64,000 nucleotides of DNA from Candidatus Margulisiibacteriota bacterium (GCA_028715625.1 JAQURL010000002.1:2438-66437); one strand, 5' to 3'; shown: positions 15,955-59,047, counted from the stretch's first letter. The notes: generated by a model not told the origin, from the sequence alone. Translations and numbers: made by a program.

Positions 15955-15972
15955 ACTATGCTAAGCGAGGGG

Positions 15973-28200: not shown

Positions 28201-30398
28201 CTGTGGCTACCTCCTATTTTGTTAATAAAACAAAATTGGATACAGCTTCTTTAAATGGCACTAAATTATCTCAAACTCAAGAAAAAATAATGGCCGAGAT
28301 CGGTTATAAACCATTCAATATTCTGGCTGTTACCTATCACTGGGAAAAAGAAAACAATTTGTCGGATATAGATAATACAGTATCTCCAAACTCCAGAGCG
28401 GTCGATAATATCGGCTATAAAAATATGTTGGGAGTTTCTGTAGGCCCACAATATTTTCTTACAAACTTTTCTCTTAATCAGTATGACTACAGAAATGATT
28501 ATATGGATTTATCTAATGTTACAGACAAAAAATCCTACAGCTGGATAGTGGATAACACCTGCACGGCATATGATAACCGTTTCCAGCTTAAAACAATTCT
28601 TTCCAAAACAAATGAAACCGAACTGGAACCTCTTTCGGGTAATCATAAACTCAGAGAAAATGCCTATCAGAAATCATCTTTTCAGCTTACCTTAAAACCC
28701 TTACCCTTTCTAGATTTATATCATTTATATAACAGAGAACTTACTGAAGTTTATAACGGTTTTGATAGTAACAATAATCCTGTTTCAAATAATTATAGCC
28801 TGGTTACTTTGCAAAACTATCAACACAACATTACTCTATATCCGCAAATTCAGACCTTTATCGTTGATAACCCCAATTATCAATATTCCATTGCTCAGTC
28901 AGAAAAAGCTTCATTACTGGTCAGCCAGACTCCTGATACAACCTTCAGTTTGCTACATCAATTTACCTGGAAATTTATCAACCTTACCAATGTCCTTTAT
29001 AAAACTTCTAATGCTAACTCTTTAGAAAGCAACAATAATATCAATAAAAATGCTAATGTTACCGAGTATAATGTTTCCAGCTTTTATTTGTTCGGAAATA
29101 TTTTTCCTGTTCAAATACAAACTATTTCCCGCCGGTTCACAAAATCGTTTGATTCCAATAGTATTCCGCGAAACACAACATTATATTCATCCGGAGAAAA
29201 TTATTCCAGCGACTCCAGATATGGACTATCGTTAACACCATTGTCTAATCTTCGTTACAGTTTTGATTTTGCTTCGGCTACTAACTATTCATTTTCTACC
29301 GAGAACAGAACAACTGATACTTTGATATCTTTTCAAAATTATCCTAAAGAAAATACCAAACAGGTTATTCAATATACTTTGGGAGATTTACTTAAATCTC
29401 AATATACCAGTGATTATACTCTTGAGGAAAACTATAAAAATACCGTGTCTTTATCAACGGTAAATATAACTTCAGTTAATAGTGTATCCATTTATAATAA
29501 AACTGCCCATATTAATGCTCAAAACCTAAGCAATGCCTTGCTGTTTTTCAAATATCCTATTAATTTGAATATTAATCAAACTTATGACGATTATATTGAT
29601 ACTGACAAAGGTTTAAAGTATAGAATTATGCAGCTGATGAATATAAATACCAATATTCCTGTAGCCGATTTTAGCGTTTCTCCTGTTCTTAACTACAGCC
29701 GAACTATACAATACCTGAAGGTTTCCGCTGATATTGATTTGGCTGATATTCAGGGTAATTATAATTCATATTTGTATAACAAAACAATTGAGGGTCAGCT
29801 AAATTGCGTTAAACAACTTAATGCCCAGTTTTCCTTTTTGTTAAATTACGGTTATAAAAAAATCGAAGAAAATTTAATTACACCCCCTACTGAGGATATT
29901 AAAAGTATAAGCGTACATAGCCTGGGCATAGGGATGCTAATGTATTTACTGCCAAAATTATCTATCAGCTATACTTATACACTAAAAGCAAACATTAATG
30001 ACATTACACAAATGGCTTTTAACAACTATGCTGATGCATTCCTGGCAGAATACAGGCCTGATCCGGTAAATAATGGAAAATATACAAGCTCGGTGGTTGT
30101 TACCTTTAGAAGAGAACATAGCTGGGGTATCGGGCTTAATGATTACGCCAAATTTGAAAACAATCAGGTTAACGGAAACACGCTATCTACCGAAATTACC
30201 GATATAGATAATATTTCTTCTACCGGGGTAGTCGCGGCAAATATTGAAATACCGATGGCTGAAAGAAGTAACGGAACAATTGAGAAATTTGTTTTTACCG
30301 CTGAAGGAAATTATGTAGAAAAAAAGGATTTAACTGGAAAAACTGACTTTAACTATTCAATTATTTCTTTTATTTTTAGCGGAAAACTCATTTTTTAG
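25254..30398 (+). CDS. very large (1,714 aa) secreted / outer-membrane protein of unknown function
   Basis: Signal peptide MLLKTIYTVLLFFSLLFCE. The composition is N/S/T/Y-rich and Cys-poor throughout. The motif DY-x-I-x-Y-x-x-G-x-V-x-F recurs. The C-terminal ~700 aa has an alternating beta-strand-like pattern and ends ...ISFIFSGKLIF (aromatic C-terminal residue typical of an OMP beta-signal). Confidence 0.6.
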   Translation: MLLKTIYTVLLFFSLLFCETISNNVTLNVLPSTSPTTDNEPNLSTSNLMELLVLVDTKNLEEISPAIIPTMAIIPVNSDLYPNKQYTIESLNKPSVNEQELKANFEVTPSVSISGNLIPTVDHSIVVLERKIFKVELSTPSIKAREPALQKITDEEDVLEKPVTSSFWRDFRWEQWEEKQKNEDNLHITPYMDGFGEIKLYSLKVNGNRNSALLDSVYVDLMRKIKEVDFQIESRFNLLLRAKINEDTEVNYNIQQEPNMPQKTDINLKIRKNIINFGVIDKAYSLGAFTNISKKIDGISVVGSEGSFNYNFGYGQAKSQADFFSRTGSGVNEYVLRNKPILENSLKVWVNDVLLVENVDYQINYFEGKVVFKTPKMSQDNLTFYYEYTNPIEEFIPIATHVNFIGLSGEYTKQAQDELQPIYKEINETYILSSDVKMIQLKKKPVKFTSEKIWSDGLPLKNNRDYYIHYINGKVFFLNKPLSPTINISYLTPQTQKKTEVFNGKGKLGIYYLQFMPILEYSDEVIVQDMVYKRDVDYKIDYINGRLMFNYPIPQTSKIVINYEQHVLGKYSATNPETDSNYKVQFGYFKEFAKAQKDLNTKLISDTYSSPSLNADNSLTLYLSSWPIVLDSIAVYVNQQLISSVNYNLNAYTGVVTINNTVITGSQNDVNITYYYYKEYGPSQWFFSGTDPDFEHNVIFNNQSAHRILSKMEQPVKYDRYNNQILVEYQKASQAGYLTLIYGKDYIVDYYNAGVNVGQIYIVLFNQYLGKDGMVYGVPANLTSYDQFRITYKYNKSNIPDPGDISHEQFEAVYNQNFSKNLDICLDVAKTSKEYSRSFQTTTNYIAANGQYGFTYSLNYPNIVENSEIVYINGQPNAIKNEHYYINYALGKITFINLNPTPSDNVYIKYSYYTTDSGENIQKVFKEGNAVNLRTKYTNNFSSSQLELVSVDDDFAPFGSTKYAAGSNVINFATAVTPYNNVSVATSYFVNKTKLDTASLNGTKLSQTQEKIMAEIGYKPFNILAVTYHWEKENNLSDIDNTVSPNSRAVDNIGYKNMLGVSVGPQYFLTNFSLNQYDYRNDYMDLSNVTDKKSYSWIVDNTCTAYDNRFQLKTILSKTNETELEPLSGNHKLRENAYQKSSFQLTLKPLPFLDLYHLYNRELTEVYNGFDSNNNPVSNNYSLVTLQNYQHNITLYPQIQTFIVDNPNYQYSIAQSEKASLLVSQTPDTTFSLLHQFTWKFINLTNVLYKTSNANSLESNNNINKNANVTEYNVSSFYLFGNIFPVQIQTISRRFTKSFDSNSIPRNTTLYSSGENYSSDSRYGLSLTPLSNLRYSFDFASATNYSFSTENRTTDTLISFQNYPKENTKQVIQYTLGDLLKSQYTSDYTLEENYKNTVSLSTVNITSVNSVSIYNKTAHINAQNLSNALLFFKYPINLNINQTYDDYIDTDKGLKYRIMQLMNINTNIPVADFSVSPVLNYSRTIQYLKVSADIDLADIQGNYNSYLYNKTIEGQLNCVKQLNAQFSFLLNYGYKKIEENLITPPTEDIKSISVHSLGIGMLMYLLPKLSISYTYTLKANINDITQMAFNNYADAFLAEYRPDPVNNGKYTSSVVVTFRREHSWGIGLNDYAKFENNQVNGNTLSTEITDIDNISSTGVVAANIEIPMAERSNGTIEKFVFTAEGNYVEKKDLTGKTDFNYSIISFIFSGKLIF
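26300..27950 (+). repeat. coding repeats: recurring ~15-aa motif DY-x-(I/V)-x-Y-x-x-G-x-(V/I)-x-F inside the 1,714-aa ORF
   Basis: Instances: VENVDYQINYFEGKVVF (~26320-26370), NNRDYYIHYINGKVFF (~26641), KRDVDYKIDYINGRLMF (~26851), VNYNLNAYTGVVTI (~27186), GKDYIVDYYNAGVNVGQIYI (~27481), EHYYINYALGKITF (~27898). Confidence 0.55.
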
Positions 30399-31501
30399 AT
30401 TACATTTATTATTTGCTGCAGAGGACTTAACATAATATATCCGAACATGAATACAATACCTCCGATAACCAGCATAATCAGCAAAACAATCAGATTGGCT
30501 AAACGGTCGTAATGCTCTTCCTCATTGAGATTTAGCTCCTTTATCATTTTTTCTATTATGGATATTTTTTTTGTATTCTCTACCTGCTGGGAAAATATCG
30601 GTTTATACTTTTTAAGTATTGCCATTGATTCCATGGCTTCCGGCAACCCTTTTCCTTGTTTGATCAACAGGCTCAGTGTGGAAAATAAATAGCTTTCATG
30701 AAAATTATTTTGTACTTCATTATATTTATCTATTAAATAATCAAATGAAATATGATATTTAATCGAAGCCTGGTAAATAGTAAATAAAGATTTTTGAAAA
30801 TGTCTGAACATAATACTTTTTATCAAAGGAAGTTTCATAACCATTGCTTTGTTCCGCTTAAACATAAAAAAACCAAAGGTTCCGATAACAAAAATTGCAA
30901 ATATTATTATTAATAAATTAGAGGGATAAAATAAGACTAATAGCAATGGCGTTTTTAGTTGGTAGTATTTATAATAATTACTAATTTGAGGAATGATTAT
31001 CGTTGAAAAAACTGGAATTAATATAATTACCAGAAGAGATAAGGTAGCCGGATAAAATATTTTGCTTAGCATTTTATTGTGTTCAACAATTTTGTTGCTT
31101 AACATCTCGTATATATCCTCTATGGCAGTTTCCATGTTGCCAGTTTCTTTAGCTATGAATAAATAAAGCCTGGCGTTACTTCCTATCAGAGAACCCGAGA
31201 GTAAAGCATCTGAAAAGCTGCTCCCTTTCTTTAATAAACCCAAAACCCTTTTTATCAACGGCTTCCTTGACTTTTTTACAACATTTTTGTAATTATCCAG
31301 AATGTAATAAGCATTCGTTCCTTCCTTATAATATAAATACAAAAATTGAAATAAATCTTTTTGTTCTGGCAATGATAAACCGGCTTTGCCAATATATAAA
31401 ATCAACCATTTGCTTTTCTTAATTTTTTTTAGGGTTGTCTTCGAAAAATAAACTCTGAAAAACCCTTTTGTTAATGAAAAACAAAATGCCTCATAGATCA
31501 T
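30395..31501 (-). CDS. type II secretion system F / PilC-family inner-membrane platform protein (divergent, orphan)
   Basis: 368 aa. Two cytoplasmic helical domains have GspF-like signatures (GSSFSDALLSGSLIGSNARLYLFIAKETGNMETAIEDIYEML; GKGLPEAMESMAILKKYKPIFSQQVENTKKISIIEKMIKEL). Three TMs sit in the canonical T2SSF positions (~150-175, ~190-215, C-terminal LIVLLIMLVIGGIVFMFGYIMLSPL). Confidence 0.55.
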   Translation of the reverse strand: MIYEAFCFSLTKGFFRVYFSKTTLKKIKKSKWLILYIGKAGLSLPEQKDLFQFLYLYYKEGTNAYYILDNYKNVVKKSRKPLIKRVLGLLKKGSSFSDALLSGSLIGSNARLYLFIAKETGNMETAIEDIYEMLSNKIVEHNKMLSKIFYPATLSLLVIILIPVFSTIIIPQISNYYKYYQLKTPLLLVLFYPSNLLIIIFAIFVIGTFGFFMFKRNKAMVMKLPLIKSIMFRHFQKSLFTIYQASIKYHISFDYLIDKYNEVQNNFHESYLFSTLSLLIKQGKGLPEAMESMAILKKYKPIFSQQVENTKKISIIEKMIKELNLNEEEHYDRLANLIVLLIMLVIGGIVFMFGYIMLSPLQQIINVI

Positions 31502-32265
31502 GGAAAAAATAATCCGTTTGTGTTCTTTTCAATAATATTTGCCAGTTCTTTTATGCTGATTCGCTTAATTTCGGCTAATTTGTTTAATATAACAACCAGA
31601 TATTCTGGCTGATTAATATGTTTTCTGTATGGTTCGGGAGTCAGGTATGGCCCATCCGTTTCAATGAGCAATTTGTCTAAAGGTATTTGCTGGATTATAT
31701 CCAAAAGATTTTTATTATTCTTAAACGTTATCATGCCGTTAAGCGAAATATAAATACCAATATCCAACAGTTTTTTAAGTGTATCTAAAGGGCCGGTATA
31801 AGAATGTAATATCATTTTTATTTTCTTGGTATCTTTGATAATCTGGTAAACATCTTCTTCTGCGCCCCTGCTGTGGATTGAAGCGGGAAGCTGAAATTCC
31901 TGTGCTTTTTCTAGAAAATAAATAAAAACGTCTTTTTGTGATTTTTGTTCACTATACGAATAAAAATAATCCAGGCCTATCTCCCCTATTGCTACACATT
32001 TCGGATTATTCTTGAATGCTAATAAAGATTCTTCAAACTCTGCTTTTAAAAAGCTTTTAGCTTCATGCGGGTGACAACCGAAACCATAATACAAACATTC
32101 ATGATTTTGCGATATCTCTTTAACATTCAGACTATCTTTGTAATCTACCCCAAAATTAATAATTTTGTTTACATTATGTTTATTTGCATTATTTAACAAT
32201 TCTTGGATATTTATGGAGCTAAATTTTATATCAGTAAGATGACAATGGGAATCTATTAAATTCAT
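31498..32265 (-). CDS. tatD: TatD-family metal-dependent hydrolase
   Basis: 255 aa with IDSHCHL, GEIGLDY, HSR/HSY and ETDGPYL motifs. Confidence 0.85.
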   Translation of the reverse strand: MNLIDSHCHLTDIKFSSINIQELLNNANKHNVNKIINFGVDYKDSLNVKEISQNHECLYYGFGCHPHEAKSFLKAEFEESLLAFKNNPKCVAIGEIGLDYFYSYSEQKSQKDVFIYFLEKAQEFQLPASIHSRGAEEDVYQIIKDTKKIKMILHSYTGPLDTLKKLLDIGIYISLNGMITFKNNKNLLDIIQQIPLDKLLIETDGPYLTPEPYRKHINQPEYLVVILNKLAEIKRISIKELANIIEKNTNGLFFP

Positions 32266-32269
32266 TATA

Positions 32270-35200: not shown

Positions 35201-38200
35201 GGATAAGGTTATTTTGTTCTCCCCCGCTGGCCAGGGGTTATTAACTTCGGTTGCCAGTGGTGTGTTATAAGATCCGTCAATTACCCGGTAATAATCATAA
35301 TTCGTAAGAGAGGAGTCCTTACTGATAACAAGATTTACTGTTAGCCATCTTGTGTATTCAGTTCTTTGATCCAGTGAATATATATATAGTCCCGGGTTCG
35401 TTGCCGCATCAATATTGACATTAAAGGTCGCTCCGTCAAAGATAACATCTGTATAATTCAATGCATTATCTGTTATACCAATCCTAAAATAGGCGTTACC
35501 GCTTGCTTCTGCCAAATTTGTATTATACGTTGCCAGCCAAACCGTTCGATAGTTGGAACTTAAAGGGTTGCTCATGGTTTCAGGTAAAACAGGAGTCAAA
35601 TCTACTGTAACCGTGCTGTAAAGACCAGGCAATAAAACCTGCCAAAAGGGGGTAACAATTGCCGCCTCAATATAAGCAGGATCCTGATAAGCAAGCTTGT
35701 TGGAAACCTCCATCTTGGCGGTCATCAAGCCCTTTGGCACTATCACATTGCTATATAAACCTTGAGACCCAACTTCGTCAGGTTGTATTCTGACTAATGG
35801 TTCTGTTGTGTCGTAATAAATGCTACAGGTTACGGATTCGGAAGATATAATACCCAAATCATTGGCAACCCACAAATATAGAAGCTTGGTTTCGTTTTTC
35901 TGACTATCAAATGTGTAATAATAATCTGTAGTCGGGTAGTCTGAAAAATTAGTTATATCCAGGTTTGGTGTGGCTTCCTCGGTAATCCAATATTTTTTCA
36001 CCTGTGAGTCTACATTAAAGGTAACCTTAACTTGATCTAATTTTGTATAATATTGATCTTCAGTTAACGGATTATACATTCTAAAATTTGTTGCCTGTGG
36101 CGGAGATGATGTTTTAATAATAAAATAGGAGTCCCCGTTTAAGCTTGTTGTTTTATTGCCGGCATTATCGAATACTGTTGTTTTGAAAATATACCACCCG
36201 TCCTCAAGTGAGCTGACATTAAATGTACAAAACCATTCTTGCATAGCTGGCATAAGGTTTACAAAGGTCTCAAGGTTTGGGCTGTTTAAATAGTAATATC
36301 CCAACATTGGTGTTATGGTAACTTCTTCTGAAAGTTGAAGTGTAACACTTACAATATCTGAGGTTATTAGGAATGGTTTAATGAAACTTCTGGCAATTGA
36401 ATAGCTTAAGGTGACTGTGGGCGCTGAAACATCAACTTTAATTTCCCTGGTGGCAATTGAACCGTTTCCGGCTCGATCCAGGGCGAATAAAAGAACATTG
36501 ATCGTGTCATGATTATTCGCACTTACCGATAATGTTGCTGTTAACTGCGATGTAAAATCAGAATAATCTACCTGGCCTGTGGACGCCTTATATTTATATG
36601 GTGCATCTCTTAATTGACCGTTTTCTATTGGTACATCCCAGGACAAAGTAATAACCGTCTGGCTGAACCAGCCTGGTAAAGGTAGAACAACCCCGTTAGG
36701 GATATCGGTATCAACAATTGGGGACTGCGCGATAATATCAAATGTGTTGATAATGGGTGGTGTTTTATCAATCTTAATATATAAATTTTTGGTTGTTAAA
36801 TTACCCGCTTTGTCCCGAACCTGTATATAGGCATCTCTCGTGTCGTCCCCTCCCTCAAGCACTCCCAATCCATTGTAGGCCAATTCGTTCTGCCAGTCTG
36901 TCCAGTTTTGTGTTGTTACAGACTTAAGCCTGTATGGTTTTGCTGGCAGTTGCCCGTCATCGTTTGATTGATTCCATTCCAGATTAATTTGTTCATTATC
37001 ATACCAACCACTTTCCGACAAATATCCGTTGCCATCACTATCAGTATTATCCGCCAATATATTAGCATAAAAAGATGCCGGATTTACCATGTCTACATAA
37101 ACATTGGTTGTCTTTTGCAGCACGTTACCTGCGTGGTCTGCTATGGCGCCGACAATATAGTGTGTTAAAGACCCGCCTTCGGTTGTATAAATACTGACAT
37201 CCTTAGAGTTTGTAAATCCCTGGCCGTATGTGGTCTTGCCCAGATCGTTTTTAATAAAATATTTTGCGCTTCTAAGGCCTAAACTATCCGTAACATTTTC
37301 AGAAATAAAAGAACAAAAAACATAATTATCCGAATACCACCCCAAATCAGGAGTAACTCCTCCGCGATGCGGGCCGTCGTCTTCTAGTTTAAGCGTATAG
37401 GATCCTGTGGGTAAAGTAACATCAACCGTCACAAAAACTGAATTTGTAACTATATTACCTGCTTCATCAGCACATTCTATAGAAATTTCATTTCTTATGT
37501 TGGCCGATACCTTAAAATTAGCTACCGTATTTTCTGCTTGCCAATTACCCCATCCATTGTTGTTAATTTTAATACGATAGGGTTTGTCTCTCAGTTTCCC
37601 CCCATCTATTGGCTGCTGCCAGCTTAAATCTATTGTATCATCATCGTACCAGCCAGGTTCAGGGTCTATACCGTCACCATTGCTGTCAGCATCCGGTACA
37701 AGGGTAATATTAAGATTTGATGGTGTTGTTACGTCGGCTTTTATATATTTGTTTATACTTTTAGTCCAACCAGCCTTATCTACAAATAACGCCGTAAAAA
37801 TAATGGGTGTATTATCCTGCGGTATAACTGTAAATTCCGAAAAAGTCGGATTTGAGGAGGGATTTTGACTATAAGAAACGTCTTTGTCGGTTTTCAGGTA
37901 TAGCCTGGATAATCCGGCACCGCCACTATCAATATCCCATGTCAGAACAATATTAAGGGTAGACTGATCATACCAGTTCGCATTTGGCAAAACACCATCG
38001 TTCTGGTTATCACTATCATCAGGAAGAAAATTAATATCGACAAAATTAAATGAAATCGGCGTCTCGCTTACATATACAATCCCTGATGTGGTCTGAATAT
38101 TTCCGGCTGCGTCTTTAGCAATTAATACAAATTCATTCCCGGTTAAAGATTCCGACGTTCCAACCATAACGTCTGAAATATTGGTCCAGTTTGATGTTGT

Positions 38201-39838
38201 TGAGTTCAGGCCTGACGTATTTCTATAGGCAAAAGGTTGATTTGGAAGTGCGCCGCCATCAGATACCGACCACATCCAGCGAACTTCCGACCCGTCATTG
38301 TACCAACCTTTTTCCGGCAACATTTGTCCATCAGCTTTATTTGTATCATCCATCAGTAGCAAATAATTTATTGTAGGAGGCTGAATATCAACTTTTACGT
38401 TTGCATATGCTTCCCTGACATTCCCTGCTTTATCTGCAGCCCTCACATAAACCGTTCTGTTTGTATTATTGCCTGGTTCAATATATAGGGCATTTGCATT
38501 CATCGTACTTTGAAATTGATTTATTGAAATAGTGTCTCCAATTTGAGCGGACCAATAGGGCCAACCTACATCGCTTTTTATTTGGTAAGGCTGATCTTTT
38601 AAGGCTGTGTCACTTGGTTGAGTCCAGCTAAAACTGACAGTTTCATCATTGTACCAGCCTTGTTCCGGTACTGACTGGGTTGGATTATTGTCCGTATCAT
38701 CTGCTATAGTTACATAAAAAGTCCCTGGCAGTGTCTGGTCTACATTTACCGTTATCGACATGGTTACATAGTTATAAACATTATCTAAAAGATACACAAC
38801 GATTTCACGGTCTGTGCCTTCCAGTGTTTTTATACTAACTGTGACGTTTGAGCTGGAATACAGCGATTGAACAATTGATTCATAATAAAACTGGCTTCTT
38901 ACGCCACTTCCGGTATTATCTGTAGCCAAATTGTTAATTTTCACAGAAACGGTTAGCTGGTCATACCAGCCTGTTTCTGGAAGGATACCGTCTCCACCGT
39001 TATCCGACAAATCTGGCAATAATTGAAAACTAGAACCGTTAATTGCCGGTGCCTGATTATCAATCATTATATTTTTGGTGTTTATATAAACCGTGTTATC
39101 GATAGTTGCATTTCCTTGAGGAAAAACCAGGTTAATTTTTAGCTCCACGTTTCTGCTAATACTTGCTGAGGTTGGTAGAACAAAATTATTGAAATCAAAC
39201 AAACCGCTTGTATTTATATTTACGACCGAACCCTCTGCTTTATTGTCAAAAAAAATCCTCGCCGATACATCCTGCAGTGGATAAATGTTCTGATTATACT
39301 TATATGTGACTTTGCCGCTACAATGCAACTGTTCGGCTGAACCTATTCCTCCTTTAAACCAGGTTCCCTCCGGACTTAGGTACATATATTTGGAATCGCA
39401 GGTGATGTTAAAAGTGTTTACAACAAACTGTTCGTTATAAGTTAGGTTATCGTTATAAATATAATCGTTACTGCCATCATAGCTGTTGATGGTTACAGAA
39501 TATATTCCATCTTGTATAAATGAATTTTGCCACTTAATTTTAAAATTCAAAGAACATTCAGACCCATATTTGCCTCCACTGAAACTATCAAGCAAATCAA
39601 AACCCTGTACAATAGTACATGTCGGTTGATTTGCAGGAGTATATATAACGACAATTTTATCTCCGATATTAATTGTCAGCGTGTCATCATCCGATTTCAG
39701 CTGGATTGCTTCATTTTGCATGATATTCATATAGTTTGTAGTAATTCCTGATGATTTGAAAACTACTTCACTTATGGAACCGTAACTGAATACTGCTAAA
39801 AAAAGAAAAAGGCTGATTAAACGTATTAGACGGGTCAT
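32270..39838 (-). CDS. giant (2,522 aa) multi-domain cell-surface protein with a C-terminal FlgD-Ig / T9SS-type sorting-like domain
   Basis: Signal peptide MTRLIRLISLFLFLAVFSYG. Eight tandem ~105-118-aa Ig-like repeats (aa ~258-1138), further beta-sandwich modules, three ~160-aa repeats (aa ~1705-2190), an FN3-like module (aa ~2305-2415), and a C-terminal ~100 aa NYPNPF...IEIKVYDSIGHFVKKF...VEWDGKDEAGEYVEKGGYFVVIEA. Confidence 0.8.
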   Translation of the reverse strand: MTRLIRLISLFLFLAVFSYGSISEVVFKSSGITTNYMNIMQNEAIQLKSDDDTLTINIGDKIVVIYTPANQPTCTIVQGFDLLDSFSGGKYGSECSLNFKIKWQNSFIQDGIYSVTINSYDGSNDYIYNDNLTYNEQFVVNTFNITCDSKYMYLSPEGTWFKGGIGSAEQLHCSGKVTYKYNQNIYPLQDVSARIFFDNKAEGSVVNINTSGLFDFNNFVLPTSASISRNVELKINLVFPQGNATIDNTVYINTKNIMIDNQAPAINGSSFQLLPDLSDNGGDGILPETGWYDQLTVSVKINNLATDNTGSGVRSQFYYESIVQSLYSSSNVTVSIKTLEGTDREIVVYLLDNVYNYVTMSITVNVDQTLPGTFYVTIADDTDNNPTQSVPEQGWYNDETVSFSWTQPSDTALKDQPYQIKSDVGWPYWSAQIGDTISINQFQSTMNANALYIEPGNNTNRTVYVRAADKAGNVREAYANVKVDIQPPTINYLLLMDDTNKADGQMLPEKGWYNDGSEVRWMWSVSDGGALPNQPFAYRNTSGLNSTTSNWTNISDVMVGTSESLTGNEFVLIAKDAAGNIQTTSGIVYVSETPISFNFVDINFLPDDSDNQNDGVLPNANWYDQSTLNIVLTWDIDSGGAGLSRLYLKTDKDVSYSQNPSSNPTFSEFTVIPQDNTPIIFTALFVDKAGWTKSINKYIKADVTTPSNLNITLVPDADSNGDGIDPEPGWYDDDTIDLSWQQPIDGGKLRDKPYRIKINNNGWGNWQAENTVANFKVSANIRNEISIECADEAGNIVTNSVFVTVDVTLPTGSYTLKLEDDGPHRGGVTPDLGWYSDNYVFCSFISENVTDSLGLRSAKYFIKNDLGKTTYGQGFTNSKDVSIYTTEGGSLTHYIVGAIADHAGNVLQKTTNVYVDMVNPASFYANILADNTDSDGNGYLSESGWYDNEQINLEWNQSNDDGQLPAKPYRLKSVTTQNWTDWQNELAYNGLGVLEGGDDTRDAYIQVRDKAGNLTTKNLYIKIDKTPPIINTFDIIAQSPIVDTDIPNGVVLPLPGWFSQTVITLSWDVPIENGQLRDAPYKYKASTGQVDYSDFTSQLTATLSVSANNHDTINVLLFALDRAGNGSIATREIKVDVSAPTVTLSYSIARSFIKPFLITSDIVSVTLQLSEEVTITPMLGYYYLNSPNLETFVNLMPAMQEWFCTFNVSSLEDGWYIFKTTVFDNAGNKTTSLNGDSYFIIKTSSPPQATNFRMYNPLTEDQYYTKLDQVKVTFNVDSQVKKYWITEEATPNLDITNFSDYPTTDYYYTFDSQKNETKLLYLWVANDLGIISSESVTCSIYYDTTEPLVRIQPDEVGSQGLYSNVIVPKGLMTAKMEVSNKLAYQDPAYIEAAIVTPFWQVLLPGLYSTVTVDLTPVLPETMSNPLSSNYRTVWLATYNTNLAEASGNAYFRIGITDNALNYTDVIFDGATFNVNIDAATNPGLYIYSLDQRTEYTRWLTVNLVISKDSSLTNYDYYRVIDGSYNTPLATEVNNPWPAGENKITLSYRIDNGTAVENALEGPKSLYVWTRKSLYINPGIVKKVITFDITIPTYSMQTDLYKQKDNLNYTETLRVTINFNEKMCDNPTPTIYIINEDEITTISSYELVFLKLNKSDYVYITTINVEGSDKQKNIYIKVIGDDMAGNRLIAREALRQKLVLQEYKDEVSIKQPYAEQGQKDFAFMSFTVSANDKPVHLKGIRILAYGHYVASDISQFTIYKDGDDNGLFEPRKKYDVIVGVSDKELDNTHVVYIPFYEDEIIVSSNKKKFFVAADIGAGAVKGNTMYLQYATKNVCQVNDNEMVDYSIDPYNTFKTKTVTFVKPISRVYINNMDDSDLNPTFNQGADLATIKKLKLYTDVGSVVWSGMKISYTGSLDNSNFSQIAIYKDGDYNGIFNKDIDVLISNGNDRFESGKNTITVNFKINQALTNESDNDTYYIVGAVGINAPIGTTFSMRIVTANDIYIETPNIVVDSSFPVNSIPFNIQKYTSKIDVTHNNNKQEDVYQGDRIVLQKFNLTVDYFNPKLRSIDYLLDGTAIKSDFNDIAIYTLSRNQTYNSSYFELTDASKLDAVNTWMDSDKKVRIQFANPYELSSSNSFALVATVSPTANIDKQFVFRTTYYITTANPYVIFQNGTAKADKTITTNTVLIIDAFRPSQPIISGNYYSQYVQKIGIDYDSYTKNGNNIVGVKYYIGSTKEGTDIATYTEKALATPRSLLIDEPLNIENIILEDNKKYFIMLNTISERTDNPSVKYYSKTSYFEFKTDFSPPHLPNYPPSVVISDTDVNNITHQITWGDFLEEESGIGKFIVEEKSNYSPSWSVVKENYISDPASIKSSDRLAVMYNRKPNMSYTYRIKAQNLAGLLSDYIYTNSVTTVETNKVLSHVSNYPNPFYSRKEKTKLFYFLNQDTGIEIKVYDSIGHFVKKFTFTGGLQGKSVKGDCEVEWDGKDEAGEYVEKGGYFVVIEAPEAKGEVTKVVRMVGVVH
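33269..34726 (-). repeat. three ~160-aa coding repeats in the giant surface protein
   Basis: Units share Q-G-x-(D/R)...(F/I)-x-(L/F)...ending in SQFTIYKDGDDNGLFEP, SQIAIYKDGDYNGIFNK and NDIAIYTLSRNQTYNSS. Confidence 0.5.
36425..39067 (-). repeat. eight tandem coding repeats (~105-118 aa each) in the giant surface protein
   Basis: Each unit opens with (L/V)P-x-x-GWY(D/N) followed by a P(Y/F)-x-(I/Y/L)K element. Examples: PETGWYDQ, PEQGWYNDETVSFSWTQP..DQPYQIK, PEKGWYNDG..NQPFAYR, PNANWYDQ, PEPGWYDDD..DKPYRIK, PDLGWYSDN, SESGWYDNE..AKPYRLK, LPGWFSQ..DAPYKYK. Most units close with D-x-AGN (ADKAGN, KDAAGN, VDKAGW, ADEAGN, ADHAGN, RDKAGN, LDRAGN). The repeats are diverged at the DNA level. Confidence 0.8.
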
Positions 39839-39841
39839 AGA

Positions 39842-40642
39842 TTATGTTTTATTAGGCTCTTCTTTTAATATTGGCTCAATAAAACCGTCTCTCTCCAGAT
39901 TTTTGGATAGTTCTATTATATATTGCTGTGATTTATTAATATCAGACTTGGAATATTTGTTCTTTCCCAATTCTATACCCTGTTGCACTATGTTTTTTAC
40001 TCCTTTTGGCAACACATCATAAAGGCGGCTTATTTGTTCCTGAGGCTGATGACAAAAAGCTATAGACAGGATATCGCTCTGTATCTCTGAAAAAATTCTG
40101 AGAAAATCCTTTTCGCTAACCTTAAATAAATCTTCGAACATAATCATTATACCTCTAAAATCTTTTTCGTTTTCAGGATATTTAACCTTATAAACATTTG
40201 ATAAATTAATTTTTTGATCAATATCGAGATATTCCAGAATTTTCGCCAGAACATATTTGCCTCCAAACTGCTCTGTAAGTAATCTTCTTAAGATTTTATC
40301 AAAATTTTCGATTTCTTTTTTTGTATATTGAATCAGAGACATCAATTCAGAAATTATTATGGCTTTTATATCATCCTGAAATTCCTCAAGAATTTTTTCA
40401 GCAATTTCTGGCCTGACTGATGATATGACCAGACAAACATATTTTAAGTTTTCCGGTTTTGCTCCCAGAATTTTTTTTAAAACATGAGCTGTATGATATG
40501 AGTTATATTCATTTATATAAGTAAAAAAATTCTGGGGCTGGGTTATATTCTGGTCTATTGGCTTCTCCATTTGTATAGAATCCTTTATATCATCTCTGGT
40601 TACTTTATTGGCTTTATTTACAGGCTTAACTTCTTTACTCAT
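39842..40642 (-). CDS. FliG-like protein (middle + C-terminal domains only, no FliF-binding N-domain)
   Basis: 266 aa. KPENLKYVCLVISSVRPEIAEKILEEF resembles FliG-M EHPQTIALILSxLxPxxAAxIL. FGGKYVLAKILEYL matches the GG linker region. IMIMFEDLFKVSEKDFLRIFSEIQSDILSIAF resembles MFVFEDIxxLDDRSIQxxLREVDxxxLAxAL. DINKSQQYIIELSKNLERDGFI resembles VEEAQQKIVxxxRRLEEAGEI. 8-nt overlap with the upstream gene. Confidence 0.7.
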   Translation of the reverse strand: MSKEVKPVNKANKVTRDDIKDSIQMEKPIDQNITQPQNFFTYINEYNSYHTAHVLKKILGAKPENLKYVCLVISSVRPEIAEKILEEFQDDIKAIIISELMSLIQYTKKEIENFDKILRRLLTEQFGGKYVLAKILEYLDIDQKINLSNVYKVKYPENEKDFRGIMIMFEDLFKVSEKDFLRIFSEIQSDILSIAFCHQPQEQISRLYDVLPKGVKNIVQQGIELGKNKYSKSDINKSQQYIIELSKNLERDGFIEPILKEEPNKT

Positions 40643-42131
40643 GACTTATTCTTATAAATCCTTCCTTCTCTAAATTTTGTGACATAGTAATAACCTTCTG
40701 CCGCGCTTGTTCCACATCATATCTTGAAGCAGTGTTGGTTTTCAGATTTAGCCACTGATCCACCATTGCCTGTACTCCCTTGGGCAATCTATCGGTAATC
40801 TTCCTCTGCAAGGTTGAGTCTATGTGTACCAGTGATGTGGCGATTACTTCGGTGTCTATGTCCTTAAAAATAGTTGCCAAGCTGTCTTCGTCCAATTCTA
40901 AAATGTCCTCAAACAGCACAATCAGAGAGTTTAGTTCGTCGGCAACTGCCGGGTACTGTTTTTGAATGATACGCAAAATTTTCTTTTTGTCTTCACCTGA
41001 AATTTTCTCCATAATTTGCTGTAACCGATATTTCCCACCGAAAAGATAATCAATGTTGCTTTTAATTTCTTCTTCCAAAACAGCCATATCTTTTTCGGGA
41101 TAATGTTGGAGATTTATTAGGTTATTACAAATTTCCGATTGAATTTTTATTGGATATTCTATTAGTATCGATGCCGCCAGTTTAAATGGCAAACAAGCCA
41201 TTACCACCGCTATTGTACGTGGTGATGCCTGTTGTAGTGCGATTTTAACCTGTAACAAAAATTTTAATTTATAAATATTTTCTTCATTAATAAAATTGAA
41301 ATAACGAATTCCATTGCCCAGAATGTTTTTATTCATTATTTCTATCTTTTCTTCTTCCTCTTTTTTCTTTTTCTCATCTTCCAGCATTTTTTTCTGTTCG
41401 TCAGTTGATTCAGGCTTAACCTCCCCTGCTCCCTTTGCTGCTATGTATTGGGTGGGTTCTTCAGTGCCTATTGGTTCTTTCTTCTTCCCCTTGAATAATA
41501 ACCTCCAGATAATTACCAGAAAAATTATACCGGCTAAAGCAGCCACAGCTAAGATAACTGCATTGAGCAAGCTGAACTTGCTTCTGGTCGTAAGTTTTTG
41601 TTTTGATAAAGCTTCTTTTCTTTCCAGTTCGCTAAAGTTTTCCTTTAAAATTGTAAGCTTGTCTCCTTTTTCCTCATCCAGATTTAAAAATTTTGTTACG
41701 AAAAGTTTCAGGCTTCTTAGTTCTCCCAATTTGATTTTTGAGTCCAGAATGATTATAACTTCCTTGTTTTTGATGATTGGGGATTTTTCTATTACTTCAT
41801 AATTCAAAGGCAGAGAGTTTTCGCCTCCCGCACCTTCTGTTAAAAAACGTAATGAGGGTATTCCTGGCACAATTGTGCTTTGTTTTTTTGTTCCGCCCAT
41901 GTTTTCCACACCCTCAATTTCCGGTATTTTTGTGTAGTTTATTTCCCATTTTGTTTCTTCGGCAATTAGAGAAATATAAACTATAGATTTCCCCTCACCC
42001 AAAATTTTATTTAAAGCAGATTGAACCGTATCTTCCAAATGCTTTTGAAGCATGAGTGTGCCTTGAGATTGGGAATAGGAAAATTGCAGTATAAAAATTA
42101 GCGGCAATAACAGCCTTAAAAACTTCCTCAA
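40635..42131 (-). CDS. chimeric membrane protein: FliF/SctJ-like ring-building periplasmic domain, TM, K/E linker, FliG-like (M+C) cytoplasmic domain
   Basis: 498 aa. TTG start with a GGGGG SD 5 nt upstream. Hydrophobic leader aa 5-20, periplasmic aa ~22-185 (LEDTVQSALNKILGEGKSIVYISL; EVIIILDSKIKLGELRSLKLFVTKFLNLDEEKGDKLTILKENF), TM aa ~186-212, K/E-rich linker, then a FliG-like region aa ~270-498 (ASPRTIAVVMACLPFKLAASILIEYP; FGGKYRL; LIVLFEDILELDEDSLATIFKDIDTEVIATSL; YDVEQARQKVITMSQNLEKEGFI). Confidence 0.65.
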   Translation of the reverse strand: MRKFLRLLLPLIFILQFSYSQSQGTLMLQKHLEDTVQSALNKILGEGKSIVYISLIAEETKWEINYTKIPEIEGVENMGGTKKQSTIVPGIPSLRFLTEGAGGENSLPLNYEVIEKSPIIKNKEVIIILDSKIKLGELRSLKLFVTKFLNLDEEKGDKLTILKENFSELERKEALSKQKLTTRSKFSLLNAVILAVAALAGIIFLVIIWRLLFKGKKKEPIGTEEPTQYIAAKGAGEVKPESTDEQKKMLEDEKKKKEEEEKIEIMNKNILGNGIRYFNFINEENIYKLKFLLQVKIALQQASPRTIAVVMACLPFKLAASILIEYPIKIQSEICNNLINLQHYPEKDMAVLEEEIKSNIDYLFGGKYRLQQIMEKISGEDKKKILRIIQKQYPAVADELNSLIVLFEDILELDEDSLATIFKDIDTEVIATSLVHIDSTLQRKITDRLPKGVQAMVDQWLNLKTNTASRYDVEQARQKVITMSQNLEKEGFIRISHE

Positions 42132-42220: not shown

Positions 42221-42265
42221 AAGATAATAAAAAGGATTGATATTAATTCATCTATCAATCCTTTT
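42221..42265 (-). terminator. rho-independent terminator after ssb
   Basis: Perfect 13-bp stem (42230-42242 AAAAGGATTGATA / 42253-42265 TATCAATCCTTTT) with a 10-nt loop. On the minus strand it is followed by TATTATCTT. It lies 12 nt downstream of the ssb stop. Confidence 0.6.
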
Positions 42266-47042: not shown

Positions 47043-47235
47043 AATTCAAACCCTCTTTTTTCTTAATTTTTTGAGAAACTTTTCTTTTTTAATTATATTC
47101 GCATTTAATGAATTCTCAATATAAAGTCCATAAATTAGCTTAAAGCCAAGATATTTGATAGACAACCCATTCCCGGTAATATAAAATTAGTAACGCTTAG
47201 GTAATGCTCAGCAACCAGGTTAGGTGTCACATTAA

Positions 47236-47312
47236 GCGCCTGTAGCTCAATTGGATAGAGCACATGACTACGGATCATGAGGTCGGGAGTTCGAATCTCT
47301 TCAGGCGCGCCA
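47236..47312 (+). tRNA. tRNA-Arg (anticodon ACG), CCA encoded
   Basis: Cloverleaf by hand: acceptor GCGCCTG/CAGGCGC, D-arm GCTC-AATTGGATA-GAGC, anticodon stem CATGA/TCATG with loop CTACGGA (anticodon ACG), variable AGGTC, T-arm GGGAG-TTCGAAT-CTCTT, discriminator G, then CCA. Confidence 0.9.
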
Positions 47313-50715: not shown

Positions 50716-50922
50716 ATGACCAAGGATGCTTTTCCTGAAGACTTTTTGCAAACCAAAGATGAATTGAAGAAGCTTTTGGCTCATGCTCTTCCAAAAATAA
50801 AGGAATTAAATGCCAAGCAAAAATCTGGTGATGATTTAACTGCTGTCCAGCAAGCAGCGCTAGTAAAATATAAACGTATTATTTTTCTGTTGAAGGCTTC
50901 AAAAAAAATTAACTTATTTTAG
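50716..50922 (+). CDS. small hypothetical helical protein (68 aa)
   Basis: ORF only (MTKDAFPEDFLQTKDELKKLL...), with no recognisable family. It follows lepB closely, and its stop overlaps the stop of the convergent flagellar-family gene. Confidence 0.3.
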   Translation: MTKDAFPEDFLQTKDELKKLLAHALPKIKELNAKQKSGDDLTAVQQAALVKYKRIIFLLKASKKINLF

Positions 50923-55927: not shown

Positions 55928-55951
55928 AACTATCTCCTTTTAAATCTGCTT

Positions 55952-59046: not shown

Positions 59047-59047
59047 T

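What the first reader, a model, noticed from the sequence alone, without database searches (positions are those of the whole stretch)
30395..42131. Tightly coupled five-gene operon combining FliF/FliG-like rotor modules, a 2,522-aa surface protein, TatD and an orphan PilC/GspF-like platform protein
Five minus-strand ORFs are packed with essentially no intergenic space:
- 8-nt overlap at 40635-40642.
- 3-nt gap at 39839-39841.
- 4-nt gap at 32266-32269.
- ATGA overlap at 31498-31501.

In order the operon encodes:
1. A membrane protein whose periplasmic part looks like FliF/SctJ ring-building motifs and whose cytoplasmic part looks like FliG middle + C domains.
2. A soluble FliG-like protein lacking the FliF-binding N-domain.
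3. A giant secreted multi-Ig-repeat protein with a FlgD-Ig / T9SS-type C-terminal domain.
4. TatD.
5. A three-TM T2SS-F/PilC-like protein.

None of the normal partners is adjacent. There are no flagellar partners (fliE/H/I/J, flhA/B, hook or filament), no type IV pilus or T2SS partners (ATPase, pilins, secretin), and no T9SS partners (gldK/L/M/N).

The only strong terminator-like hairpin nearby (42230-42265) sits just upstream and belongs to ssb, so the operon appears to have its own start. My inference is that flagellar-rotor-derived and pilus-platform-derived parts have been recruited into a non-flagellar envelope complex that exports, anchors or moves the giant surface protein. I am not aware of a described system with this composition.
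Basis: partly seen in the sequence, partly recalled or inferred. Interest (0 to 1): 0.85.

Follow-up and report, generated by a model that had tools for sequence, protein, structure and literature searches.

The report
Fused FliF-FliG rotor with giant partner
In an uncultured Margulisbacteria genome, the two core rotor proteins of the bacterial flagellar motor are naturally fused into one shortened protein, encoded with a second rotor-like protein, motor stator genes and a conserved 2,500-residue secreted protein; this looks like an undescribed, stripped-down variant of the flagellar motor, while the neighbouring TatD and PilC-like genes are not conserved with it outside the nearest relative.

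Summary
The five ORFs, their junctions and the FliG, FliF, TatD and T2SSF homologies are real. The functional unit is different from the one proposed.

Across about 12 Margulisbacteria genomes the conserved block is: FliF(RBM3)-TM-FliG(M+C) fusion, then a soluble FliG(M+C) paralog, then (MotA-MotB), then a colinear giant protein of about 2,550 aa. In four genomes motAB sits inside the operon.

TatD and the T2SSF gene follow the giant gene only in the window and its nearest relative. Elsewhere an aminoacyl-tRNA synthetase intervenes, or the genes are not seen.

The lineage is not free of flagellar parts. A true FlgE/F/G-family gene lies at 50919-51782. Nine of ten genomes with the fusion also carry a cluster of Flg, two FliM/N-like genes, FliOPQR and FlhB elsewhere.

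Best reading: the rotor and stator of a highly derived flagellar-type motor, with a natural FliF-FliG fusion not described in the literature I could search. The role of the giant Sec-exported protein is inferred, not shown. A truly non-flagellar motor that moves this protein is not excluded.

The parts
40635..42131 (-). Protein A (498 aa from TTG): a natural FliF-FliG fusion. Signal peptide or N-terminal anchor, aa 1-24. Periplasmic FliF RBM3/beta-collar-like domain, aa 25-185 (nt 41577-42059). TM, aa 188-213 (nt 41493-41570). K/E-rich linker, aa 214-290. FliG_M, aa 298-359 (nt 41055-41240). FliG_C, aa 389-495 (nt 40647-40967).
   Evidence: Pfam FliG_M 32.5 bits and FliG_C 56.7 bits. TM and signal peptide. 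Foldseek: FliG_MC 1lkv E 4e-10; FliG_C 8ucs_H TM 0.89, rmsd 1.6. N-domain: top 18 hits are FliF RBM3. hhalign against FliF 98.3%, E 1.2e-14. 24 close homologs, all of those named being Margulisbacteria.
39842..40642 (-). Protein B (266 aa): soluble FliG middle + C-terminal domain paralog. It has no FliG_N domain and no TM. It overlaps A by 8 nt.
   Evidence: Pfam FliG_C 47.5 bits; FliG_M 19.6 bits, below the cut-off. phmmer against T. maritima FliG_MC 3ajc E 1.2e-8 over residues 63-255, with the Gly-Gly linker and the 'MFED' hinge retained. It follows A in every locus that extends far enough.
32270..39838 (-). Protein C (2,522 aa): giant protein with a Sec signal peptide, no internal repeats and no Pfam domain above its cut-off. 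The most conserved part is the C-terminal ~119 aa (nt 32273-32629), a FlgD-Ig / T9SS-CTD-like beta-sandwich.
   Evidence: Orthologs are 2,513-2,617 aa and colinear over the full length at 30-51% identity. They follow B, or MotB, in all loci that extend far enough. CTD: PorU-CTD 29 bits, FlgD 31 bits, TIGR04183 22.0 against a cut-off of 23; FlgD 4zzf E 0.016. No self-repeats.
46266..47042 (-). MotA: flagellar-type stator A subunit with 4 TM. It has its own near-consensus promoter-like site at 47092-47119.
   Evidence: Pfam MotA_ExbB 75 bits. PDB PomA 8brd E 7e-34 and MotA 8ucs E 2e-31. NCBIfam MotA/PomA/MotP about 142-152 bits, below the equivalog cut-offs. Promoter-like site 11/12. In four genomes motAB sits between B and C.
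45534..46265 (-). MotB: stator B subunit with plug, the conserved channel Asp (FGD23LMSQLL) and an OmpA-type peptidoglycan-binding domain. It abuts motA with no gap.
   Evidence: Pfam MotB_plug 32.4 bits and OmpA 69.7 bits. NCBIfam MotS/MotB/MotD 142-163 bits. Sequence.
50919..51782 (-). FlgE/F/G-family axial (rod/hook-type) protein, 287 aa. It is a probable component of the same flagellar-type apparatus. In other Margulisbacteria its ortholog heads the cluster of two FliM/N-like genes, FliOPQR and FlhB.
   Evidence: TIGR03506 148.7 bits against a cut-off of 70. Pfam LlgE_F_G_D1 43.8 bits. About 30 Margulisbacteria orthologs. Operon context in L032, L034, L039 and L043.
31498..32265 (-). TatD-family hydrolase (255 aa). 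It lies 4 nt after C. It is a syntenic housekeeping neighbour, not part of the conserved unit.
   Evidence: Pfam 257 bits; TIGR00010 264.8 against a cut-off of 206. In L006 and L008 it lies about 1.5 kb beyond C. In the closely related L004 the gene after C is a class-I aaRS.
30395..31501 (-). ComGB/PilC/GspF-like T2SSF platform protein (368 aa, 3 TM). It is translationally coupled to tatD through an ATGA overlap. The neighbour is lineage-specific and there is no conserved link to the motor genes.
   Evidence: Pfam T2SSF 49.1 bits, two stretches. NCBIfam ComGB 60 bits against a cut-off of 240. Only one homolog found, at 69% identity, in the same TatD-T2SSF arrangement. Absent from all other loci.
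42225..42262 (-). A/T-rich hairpin (12-bp stem AAAGGATTGATA/TATCAATCCTTT) followed by a T-run, just downstream of ssb and upstream of A. It is a possible terminator or attenuator separating ssb from the motor operon.
   Evidence: Read directly from the sequence. It was not flagged by the scan, which requires at least 3 G-C pairs.

Best explanation
The core of the finding is A, B, the nearby MotA/MotB and probably the Flg gene at 50919-51782. I read this as the rotor-stator module of a highly derived flagellar-type rotary motor of Margulisbacteria.

Protein A replaces separate FliF and FliG. Its periplasmic RBM3/beta-collar domain would oligomerise into an S-ring-like ring. One TM helix crosses the inner membrane. 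A flexible K/E-rich linker takes the place of the non-covalent FliF-tail/FliG_N contact. The FliG middle and C-terminal domains would form the cytoplasmic torque ring. Protein B is a second FliG_MC unit without a membrane anchor and would co-assemble into that ring.

The MotA5B2-type stators have the channel Asp, the plug and a peptidoglycan anchor. They would use ion flow to turn the FliG_C ring.

The same genomes encode, at another locus, two FliM/N-like proteins, the FliOPQR-FlhB export gate and a FlgE/F/G-type axial protein. The machine therefore probably still exports and rotates a short axial structure.

The 2,522-aa Sec-exported protein C is co-transcribed with the rotor genes in every relative. 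I propose it is an envelope or surface component physically associated with this motor, either the element that is turned or a large scaffold around it.

Shown: the homologies, the domain architecture, the conserved gene order and the genome co-occurrence. Inferred: ring formation, torque transfer, membership of one apparatus with the export gate, and any role of C. TatD and the T2SSF gene are neighbours by lineage-specific synteny.
For: - FliG: Pfam FliG_M and FliG_C are above their cut-offs in A, and FliG_C is above its cut-off in B.
- FliG fold: 1lkv E 4e-10; FliG_C TM 0.88-0.89, including the FliG chain of the MotAB-FliG complex 8ucs. The Gly-Gly linker is invariant in 37 family members.
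- FliF: hhalign 98.3%, E 1.2e-14, aligning A 26-171 to FliF 242-415. The top 18 Foldseek hits are all FliF RBM3/S-ring. 14 of 37 distant family members hit Pfam YscJ_FliF_C.
- Stator: MotA against PomA/MotA structures E 1e-31 to 1e-34. MotB has the plug, the OmpA domain and the Asp.
- Linkage: A-B-MotA-MotB-C is tightly packed in CAYSAQ, MFRH, DYQY and CAZXTL. A-B-C with motAB next to clpB is found in the window clade.
- Distant fusion-family members also sit directly beside motAB.
- Flagellar parts: FlgEFG 148.7 bits. The Flg, FliMN x2, FliOPQR, FlhB cluster is present in 9 of 10 fusion-bearing MAGs, including the same MAG as L014.
- Engineered FliF-FliG fusions assemble into rings (PMC11481574; 10.1101/2023.02.06.527414).
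Against: - A lacks RBM1 and RBM2, which in flagella and injectisomes contact the export gate. It also lacks FliG_N.
- The canonical charged torque-helix residues (E. coli R281, D288, D289) are not conserved in A or B.
- All scores are far below the NCBIfam equivalog cut-offs for FliG and MotA.
- FlhA, FliI/H/J, FliE, FlgB/C, hook-associated proteins and flagellin were not seen in any fusion-bearing genome. The FlhA scan was truncated and is uninformative.
- The rotor and gate clusters are never adjacent in the loci held, so 'one apparatus' rests on co-occurrence in MAGs.
- The window-clade MotA is only 33-37% identical to the in-operon MotA of other clades. That is as far as either is from PomA, so it may be a paralog replacement.
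- C has a Sec signal peptide, which is not the flagellar export route.
- Other fusion-family loci carry a different giant protein (L028) or none (L029, L031).
Confidence: 0.6

Rival explanations
1. A genuinely non-flagellar rotary machine. The FliF-FliG fusion ring and B, driven by MotAB, work independently of the type III export cluster. They move, anchor or energise the giant Sec-exported surface protein C, giving a gliding-, adhesion- or surface-remodelling device analogous to GldLM-SprB or SiiAB-SiiE.
For: - A-B-(MotAB)-C is one tightly packed, conserved operon, with gaps of 6-14 nt between motB and C.
- C is length-conserved and colinear, and its most conserved part is a CTD resembling T9SS sorting domains.
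- A lacks RBM1/2, the part of FliF that houses the export gate.
- Other fusion-family members occur as minimal TPR-fusion-MotAB modules, or with another giant protein (Kelch/beta-propeller, >3,722 aa), without flagellar genes nearby.
- No FlhA lies next to FlhB in fusion-bearing genomes, and no flagellin was seen.
Against: - The Flg, FliM/N-like, FliOPQR, FlhB cluster co-occurs in 9 of 10 fusion-bearing MAGs. That cluster has no FliF, FliG or stator genes within the ~20-kb loci held, so the two clusters are complementary.
- A true FlgE/F/G gene lies 9 kb from A in the window.
- There is no evidence that a cytoplasmic FliG ring can act on a Sec-exported protein.
- No T9SS components were examined.
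Confidence: 0.25
2. All five genes, including TatD and the PilC/GspF-like platform protein, form one functional export or anchoring system for the giant protein.
For: - In the window the five ORFs are packed without room for terminators: a 4-nt gap between C and D, and an ATGA overlap between D and E.
- The same C-TatD-T2SSF arrangement recurs in the nearest relative, L030.
Against: - The T2SSF gene was found in only one other contig, at 69% identity. It is absent from all 14 other A-bearing loci.
- In L006 and L008 TatD lies about 1.5 kb beyond C. In the closely related L004 the gene after C is a class-I aaRS.
- A TatD gene next to an aaRS gene is an ordinary housekeeping arrangement (my own knowledge of metG-tatD pairs in Firmicutes).
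- No pilus ATPase, pilin or secretin is present in the 64-kb window or its flanks.
Confidence: 0.04
3. The giant gene is an unrelated passenger. A, B and MotAB are motor genes, and C is merely a syntenic neighbour near the replication origin with no functional tie.
For: - The whole region (ychF, rpsP-trmD-rplS, clpB, hup, ssb) is syntenic across these genomes, so conserved order alone is weak evidence.
- Other fusion-family loci lack C.
Against: - The same neighbourhood shows rearrangements: motAB moved, an aaRS is present or absent, and the Flg gene moved. A-B-C stays contiguous throughout.
- In four genomes motAB is inserted between B and C without separating them transcriptionally.
- An analogous fusion, FliG_C protein and giant protein arrangement exists in L028 with a different giant protein.
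Confidence: 0.11

Closest known systems
Flagellar basal-body rotor and stator (FliF MS-ring, FliG C-ring protein, MotA5B2 stator)
   Same: - The RBM3/beta-collar fold and sequence motifs of FliF are present.
- The FliG middle and C-terminal domains are present, with the Gly-Gly linker and the hinge.
- The stator is flagellar-type, with plug, channel Asp and peptidoglycan-binding domain.
- FliM/N-like, FliOPQR, FlhB and a FlgE/F/G-type protein are encoded in the same genomes.
   Different: - FliF and FliG are one polypeptide.
- RBM1, RBM2, the FliF C-terminal tail and FliG_N are absent.
- An extra anchor-less FliG_MC paralog is present.
- The canonical torque-helix charges are not conserved.
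- A giant Sec-exported protein is co-transcribed.
- The genes are split over at least two or three loci.
- FlhA, the ATPase complex, the other rod proteins and flagellin were not seen (not fully searched).
Engineered FliF-FliG fusion proteins of Salmonella and Vibrio alginolyticus (PMC11481574; bioRxiv 10.1101/2023.02.06.527414)
   Same: FliF is covalently joined to FliG. By their abstracts, these laboratory fusions assemble into MS-ring/S-ring structures.
   Different: - Those are laboratory constructs of full-length FliF and FliG.
- Here the fusion is natural and conserved across a phylum-level lineage.
- It is truncated on both sides of the junction and at the FliF N-terminal half.
Bacteroidota gliding/T9SS motor GldLM with the giant adhesin SprB (PMC8986121)
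   Same: - An ion-driven inner-membrane motor is genetically tied to a very large surface protein.
- C's C-terminal domain resembles T9SS type-A sorting domains (TIGR04183 22.0 against 23 bits; the CTDs of PorU and PorZ).
   Different: - There is no GldL/GldM homology.
- The stator here is MotAB and acts on a FliG-type ring.
- T9SS core genes were not looked for.
- C is not repetitive and has no SprB similarity.
SiiAB-SiiE of Salmonella SPI-4 (a MotAB/ExbBD-like proton channel with a giant Ig-repeat adhesin; from my own knowledge)
   Same: A MotAB-family proton channel is encoded with a giant secreted surface protein.
   Different: - SiiE is a T1SS substrate with 53 Ig repeats.
- No FliG or FliF-type rotor is involved.
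Other RBM ring builders: SpoIIIAG and SctJ/PrgK
   Same: They share a ring-building motif fold. SpoIIIAG also has an inserted beta-collar. These are the next-best fold matches after FliF.
   Different: - Their scores are much weaker than those of FliF RBM3 (E 4e-4 and 6e-3, against 1e-7).
- Neither has a FliG fusion.

Membership tests
FliG (flagellar rotor/switch protein) | FliG C-terminal domain (ARM_C plus torque helix) | tested here: met
   Pfam PF01706: A 56.7 bits and B 47.5 bits, against a cut-off of 23.3. Foldseek: 1qc7 TM 0.88 and 8ucs_H TM 0.89, rmsd 1.6.
FliG (flagellar rotor/switch protein) | FliG middle domain and Gly-Gly linker | tested here: met
   A scores 32.5 bits on PF14841, above the cut-off of 25. 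B scores 19.6 bits, below it, but aligns to T. maritima FliG_MC at E 1.2e-8. G365 and G366 are invariant in 37 family members.
FliG (flagellar rotor/switch protein) | FliG N-terminal domain that binds the FliF C-terminal tail | tested here: not met
   Neither A nor B hits PF14842 at E <= 0.1. In A this position is occupied by a TM helix plus a K/E-rich linker.
FliG (flagellar rotor/switch protein) | Conserved charged torque-helix residues (E. coli R281, D288, D289) | tested here: not met
   A reads LPKGVQAMVDQWLNLK and B reads LPKGVKNIVQQGIELGK. Only some charges are retained.
FliG (flagellar rotor/switch protein) | Score above the curated equivalog cut-off (TIGR00207) | tested here: not met
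   A scores 59 bits and B 33.9 bits, against a cut-off of 226.7.
FliF (MS-ring protein) | RBM3 with beta-collar insertion (S-ring) | tested here: met
   hhalign 98.3%, E 1.2e-14, aligning A 26-171 to FliF 242-415. Foldseek E 1.4e-7, TM up to 0.62, and the top 18 hits are all FliF. The collar insert is modelled with low confidence.
FliF (MS-ring protein) | RBM1 and RBM2 (inner M-ring, contact with the export gate) | tested here: not met
   The periplasmic part is only about 160 aa and aligns to the RBM3 half alone. Pfam YscJ_FliF does not hit.
FliF (MS-ring protein) | Pfam YscJ_FliF_C match | tested here: inconclusive
   The window's own protein is not hit at E <= 0.1. 14 of 37 family members are hit, with a best E of 7e-10.
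Flagellar stator MotA/MotB | 4-TM A subunit with a cytoplasmic domain; B subunit with plug, channel Asp and OmpA-type domain; adjacent genes | tested here: met
   PomA 8brd E 7e-34. MotB_plug 32.4 bits, OmpA 69.7 bits, Asp23. The genes abut. NCBIfam equivalog cut-offs are not reached: 151.8 against 340.
Flagellar stator MotA/MotB | Conserved MotA charges facing FliG (E. coli R90/E98; PomA R88/E96) | tested here: inconclusive
   Charged residues are present but shifted in the alignment, and they differ between the two Margulisbacteria MotA types.
Complete bacterial flagellum | Export gate FliPQR/FlhB/FlhA, ATPase FliHIJ, rod FliE/FlgBCFG, hook, junction proteins, flagellin | tested here: inconclusive
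   FliOPQR, FlhB, two FliM/N-like genes and one FlgE/F/G-type gene were found in 9 of 10 fusion-bearing MAGs. FlhA and the rest were not seen. The FlhA scan was truncated.
T2SS-F / PilC / ComGB platform protein | Two T2SSF domains and three TM helices | tested here: met
   PF00482 49.1 bits against a cut-off of 25.2, in two stretches. Three TM segments.
T2SS-F / PilC / ComGB platform protein | Encoded with an assembly ATPase, pilins and a prepilin peptidase | tested here: not met
   None is present in the window or in the flanks of its contig. ComGB equivalog 60 bits against a cut-off of 240.
T9SS type-A C-terminal sorting domain | TIGR04183 match at the extreme C-terminus | tested here: inconclusive
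   22.0 bits against a cut-off of 23, E 1.2e-4. The CTDs of PorU, PorZ and an M6-like protease match at E 2e-7 to 5e-5. FlgD matches equally well at 31 bits.
T9SS type-A C-terminal sorting domain | T9SS core genes (SprA/Sov, PorV, PorU, GldKLMN) in the genome | not tested
   No whole genome was available, and none is present in the window.
TatD/YchF-family hydrolase | Full-length TatD_DNase domain above the curated cut-off | tested here: met
   PF01026 257.3 bits. TIGR00010 264.8 bits against a cut-off of 206.

The most novel reading that the evidence does not exclude
Margulisbacteria, the sister phylum of Cyanobacteria, possess a minimal ion-driven rotary machine. Its rotor is a single fused FliF(RBM3)-FliG polypeptide plus an anchor-less FliG paralog, turned by MotAB. 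The machine has been uncoupled from filament-based swimming and instead drives or organises a giant cell-surface protein. This would be a new kind of surface motility or adhesion engine derived from the flagellar motor. Modular variants exist in the same phylum: a TPR partner only, or a Kelch-type giant partner.
Probability: 0.25. Interest if true: 0.9.

Novelty: new variant of a known kind. Interest (0 to 1): 0.68.

Why it matters
How the MS-ring couples to the C-ring, and how much of FliF and FliG is really needed for a working rotor, are active questions in flagellar motor research. Laboratory FliF-FliG fusions have been used to study them.

This lineage offers a natural experiment, conserved across at least 79 sequence clusters. 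The fusion drops FliF RBM1/2, the FliF tail and FliG_N, and adds a second FliG_MC subunit. It is almost always linked to MotAB.

- If it is the rotor of a working flagellar-type machine, it sets a new lower bound on rotor complexity and offers a simpler target for structural work.
- If it works apart from the export apparatus and acts on the giant secreted protein, it would be a new class of envelope motor in an uncultured phylum whose cell biology is essentially unknown.

Either way, these proteins are currently annotated only as 'hypothetical' or 'FliG C-terminal domain-containing'.

Tried and rejected
1. 'Split FliF' idea. I asked whether the conserved unknown ORF between fliP and fliQ (288-361 aa) is the missing TM1+RBM1/2 half of FliF. 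Rejected: it has a signal peptide, is beta-rich, has no TM, and has no PDB relatives.
2. FliK idea. I asked whether the small ORF ahead of the Flg gene (160-197 aa) is a diverged FliK. It sits where the FliK-like gene sits in Saganbacteria. Rejected: hhalign probability 0.35%.
3. FlhA scan of genome contigs.
4. Single-sequence scan for the T2SSF gene in genomes found nothing. The homology search found one relative only.
5. Search for any fusion-family gene within +-10 kb of the 160 FliP and FlhA loci held. None was found; the only hits were canonical FliFs in Firmicute operons.
6. The wide fusion-family alignment (A4) was too divergent for a locus scan.
7. Taxonomic names for distant fusion-family clusters were mostly uninformative: 'bacterium', and two 'Thermoproteota/Thermoprotei archaeon' labels that I suspect are binning errors.
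8. P0027, a canonical FliG, turned out to belong to an ordinary flagellar operon of another organism.
9. Literature searches found nothing on this system: FliG plus Margulisbacteria, non-flagellar FliG/MotAB, natural FliF-FliG fusion, Termititenax, Marinamargulisbacteria, Saganbacteria flagella. The Termititenax genome paper is not held.
10. Rfam and tRNA scans show only tRNA-Arg at 47236-47312.

Full report
**1. Observation.**

The five minus-strand ORFs exist exactly as described:
- 40635-42131 (498 aa, TTG start)
- 39842-40642 (266 aa)
- 32270-39838 (2,522 aa)
- 31498-32265 (255 aa)
- 30395-31501 (368 aa)

The junctions are an 8-nt overlap, a 3-nt gap, a 4-nt gap and a 4-nt ATGA overlap, as stated.

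All five are real genes. Each has a family match above the Pfam cut-off or conserved homologs.

The hairpin after ssb is present, with a 12-bp A/T-rich stem and a T-run at about 42225-42262. The TTG start of the first gene has a G-rich Shine-Dalgarno-like element 6 nt upstream. It restores a signal peptide that is conserved in 22 of 24 homologs. A gene caller's 472-aa version loses that peptide.

**2. What the proteins are.**

*Protein A*:
- signal peptide
- periplasmic domain of about 160 aa
- one TM helix
- K/E-rich linker
- FliG_M (32.5 bits) and FliG_C (56.7 bits)

The full-length AlphaFold model is of moderate quality (pLDDT 66.6). Its C-terminal half matches FliG_MC structures (1lkv, E 4e-10). 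FliG_C superposes at TM 0.88-0.89 and rmsd 1.6-2.0 A, including on the FliG chain of the MotAB-FliG complex 8ucs.

The periplasmic domain was also modelled alone. Its top 18 PDB hits are all FliF RBM3/S-ring/collar structures (E 1.4e-7 to 4e-6, TM up to 0.62). SpoIIIAG and PrgK follow.

At the sequence-profile level the domain aligns to residues 242-415 of canonical FliF with 98.3% probability and E 1.2e-14.

A is therefore a natural fusion of the C-terminal periplasmic half of FliF to FliG without its N-domain. RBM1, RBM2, the FliF cytoplasmic tail and FliG_N are missing.

*Protein B* is a soluble FliG_M+C paralog:
- FliG_C scores 47.5 bits.
- It matches T. maritima FliG_MC at E 1.2e-8.
- It keeps the Gly-Gly linker and the hinge.

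The canonical charged residues of the torque helix are not strictly kept in either A or B.

*Protein C*:
- It has a Sec-type signal peptide.
- It has no Pfam domain above its cut-off and no detectable internal repeats.
- Its C-terminal ~119 aa resemble both FlgD-Ig and T9SS type-A sorting domains at borderline scores:
  - FlgD 31 bits
  - PorU CTD 29 bits
  - TIGR04183 22.0 bits against a cut-off of 23

*Protein D* is a standard TatD (TIGR00010, 264.8 bits).

*Protein E* is a three-TM T2SSF protein, closest to ComGB.

**3.

- A motA-motB pair lies 3.4 kb upstream on the same strand (45534-47042). Only clpB, hup and ssb separate it from A.
- It is a flagellar-type stator. MotA matches PomA/MotA structures at E 1e-31 to 1e-34. 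MotB has the plug, the channel Asp and an OmpA domain.
- It has its own near-consensus promoter-like site.
- At 50919-51782 there is a genuine FlgE/F/G-family gene (TIGR03506, 148.7 bits against a cut-off of 70).
- The rest of the window and the contig flanks are housekeeping genes around dnaA.

**4. Conservation.**

All named relatives of A are Margulisbacteria: Marinamargulisbacteria, Riflemargulisbacteria, Termititenax and GWF2_35_9.

| Feature | Where it is found |
|---|---|
| Order hup-ssb-A-B | every locus |
| B follows A | wherever sequence continues |
| C ortholog follows | every locus extending at least 1 kb further |
| motA-motB between B and C, gaps of 6-14 nt | CAYSAQ, MFRH, DYQY, CAZXTL |
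| motAB next to clpB instead | window clade |

The C orthologs are 2,513-2,617 aa and colinear over the full length at 30-51% identity.

The two MotA types are only 33-37% identical to each other, but they share private motifs. Window-clade genomes carry two copies of their type and none of the other type. This suggests paralog turnover rather than simple translocation.

TatD and the T2SSF gene behave differently:
- The T2SSF gene has one detectable homolog, in the nearest relative and in the same arrangement. It is absent from all other loci.
- In L006 and L008 TatD lies about 1.5 kb beyond C. In the closely related L004 the gene after C is a class-I aminoacyl-tRNA synthetase.

The conserved unit is therefore A, B, MotAB and C, not the five-gene string.

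**5. A wider family.**

I ran an exhaustive profile search with the periplasmic domain alone. It found 79 clusters at the 50% identity level, mostly 460-510 aa long with the domain at the N-terminus.

Of 37 sampled members:
- 36 have FliG_C
- 32 have FliG_M
- 14 hit the Pfam FliF model YscJ_FliF_C

Contexts of distant members:
- TPR protein, fusion, MotA, MotB, in three genomes.
- CheY-like regulator, fusion, FliG_C-only protein, 197-aa protein, and a different giant protein (>3,722 aa, Kelch/beta-propeller).

Fusion plus stator is the recurrent core, and the large partner varies.

**6. Flagellar partners elsewhere in the genome.**

The FlgE/F/G-type protein has about 30 Margulisbacteria orthologs.

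In L032 and L034 it heads an operon of two FliM/N-like genes, FliO, FliP, an unknown secreted protein, FliQ, FliR and FlhB. L034 comes from the same MAG as the A-B-MotAB locus L014.

FliP, in the same cluster, is present in 9 of the 10 MAGs that carry A, including four MAGs of the window's clade.

Sister lineages (Saganbacteria and other Margulisbacteria) have fuller clusters, with FliK-like, FliM, FlhG-like and FlhA genes.

In fusion-bearing genomes FlhB is followed by comEA-like and ligA genes, not by flhA. My FlhA scan was truncated and is uninformative.

The rotor/stator cluster and the gate cluster are complementary in content. They are never adjacent in the DNA I hold.

**7. Interpretation.**

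The most economical reading has four parts:
- A and B form the rotor, and MotAB the stator, of a highly derived flagellar-type motor.
- FliF and FliG are covalently fused and trimmed.
- The export gate and an axial protein are encoded elsewhere.
- C is a conserved envelope or surface partner.

Engineered FliF-FliG fusions are known to form rings (papers found), which makes the architecture plausible.

Still inferred, not shown:
- ring assembly
- torque transfer
- whether the rotor and the gate belong to one machine
- what C does

C's constant size and lack of repeats fit an architectural element at least as well as an adhesin.

The main rival is a truly non-flagellar motor acting on C. The following points keep it alive:
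- RBM1/2 are absent.
- C uses the Sec route.
- Minimal fusion-MotAB modules exist.
- No FlhA or flagellin has been seen.

**8. Novelty.**

I found no paper describing a natural FliF-FliG fusion, a FliG/MotAB/giant-protein operon, or motility structures in Margulisbacteria. Database names for these proteins are 'hypothetical protein' or 'FliG C-terminal domain-containing protein'.

I classify the finding as a new variant of a known kind, the flagellar rotary motor. There is a substantial chance that it is something further removed.

Noticed in passing
window 50919-51782 (-): A genuine FlgE/F/G-family axial protein gene sits alone between lepB and ychF. In other Margulisbacteria its ortholog heads the FliM/N-FliOPQR-FlhB operon, so here (and in L012) it has been relocated or duplicated.
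   Followed up: yes
window 25254-30398 (+): A second giant ORF (1,714 aa) has a signal peptide, no family match apart from a sub-threshold DUF2460 hit, and no similarity to the 2,522-aa protein. It converges on the T2SSF gene, and their stop codons overlap by 4 nt. An unannotated convergent ORF occupies the same position in the nearest relative (L030); its similarity to this ORF was not tested.
   Followed up: partly
L020 7989-9555; L021; L022: Window-clade Marinamargulisbacteria carry a second MotAB paralog (62-65% identical MotA) on other contigs. Its neighbours are lgt, a TatD paralog, an unknown 654-aa coiled-coil protein and a FadL-like outer-membrane protein, with no flagellar genes nearby.
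   Followed up: partly
L035 10662-11528; L039 10672-11706; L043 10653-11738; L050 10573-11577: A conserved unknown secreted beta-rich protein (288-361 aa; motifs GNYG, TANGGPA, PLPGSNYP) is inserted between fliP and fliQ in Margulisbacteria export-gate clusters. It has no Pfam or PDB relatives.
   Followed up: partly
L029 4899-8762; L031 9048-12954: There are minimal modules of TPR protein, FliF-FliG fusion, MotA and MotB, next to heme-biosynthesis genes and rho, in other Marinamargulisbacteria-like genomes. No FliG paralog or giant gene is adjacent.
   Followed up: partly
L028 9216-21650: A variant in Margulisbacteria GWD2_39_127: CheY-like receiver, fusion (549 aa), FliG_C-only protein (225 aa), a 197-aa unknown, and a giant Kelch/beta-propeller protein of >3,722 aa. 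An SLH-domain protein is encoded divergently upstream.
   Followed up: no
window 53471-62843 (-): A dnaA-dnaN-recF-(DciA-like)-gyrB-gyrA block, with parAB and gidB just beyond the window (L196), places the motor operon about 20 kb from the probable replication origin.
   Followed up: no
window 45534-45541: The clpB-like gene (43235-45541, +) and motB (45534-46265, -) converge, and their 3' ends overlap by 8 nt.
   Followed up: no
window 2020-3189 (-) and 14728-15954 (+): Two ORFs of about 390-410 aa have no Pfam match. The second is followed by a small TPR protein (15958-16545).
   Followed up: no
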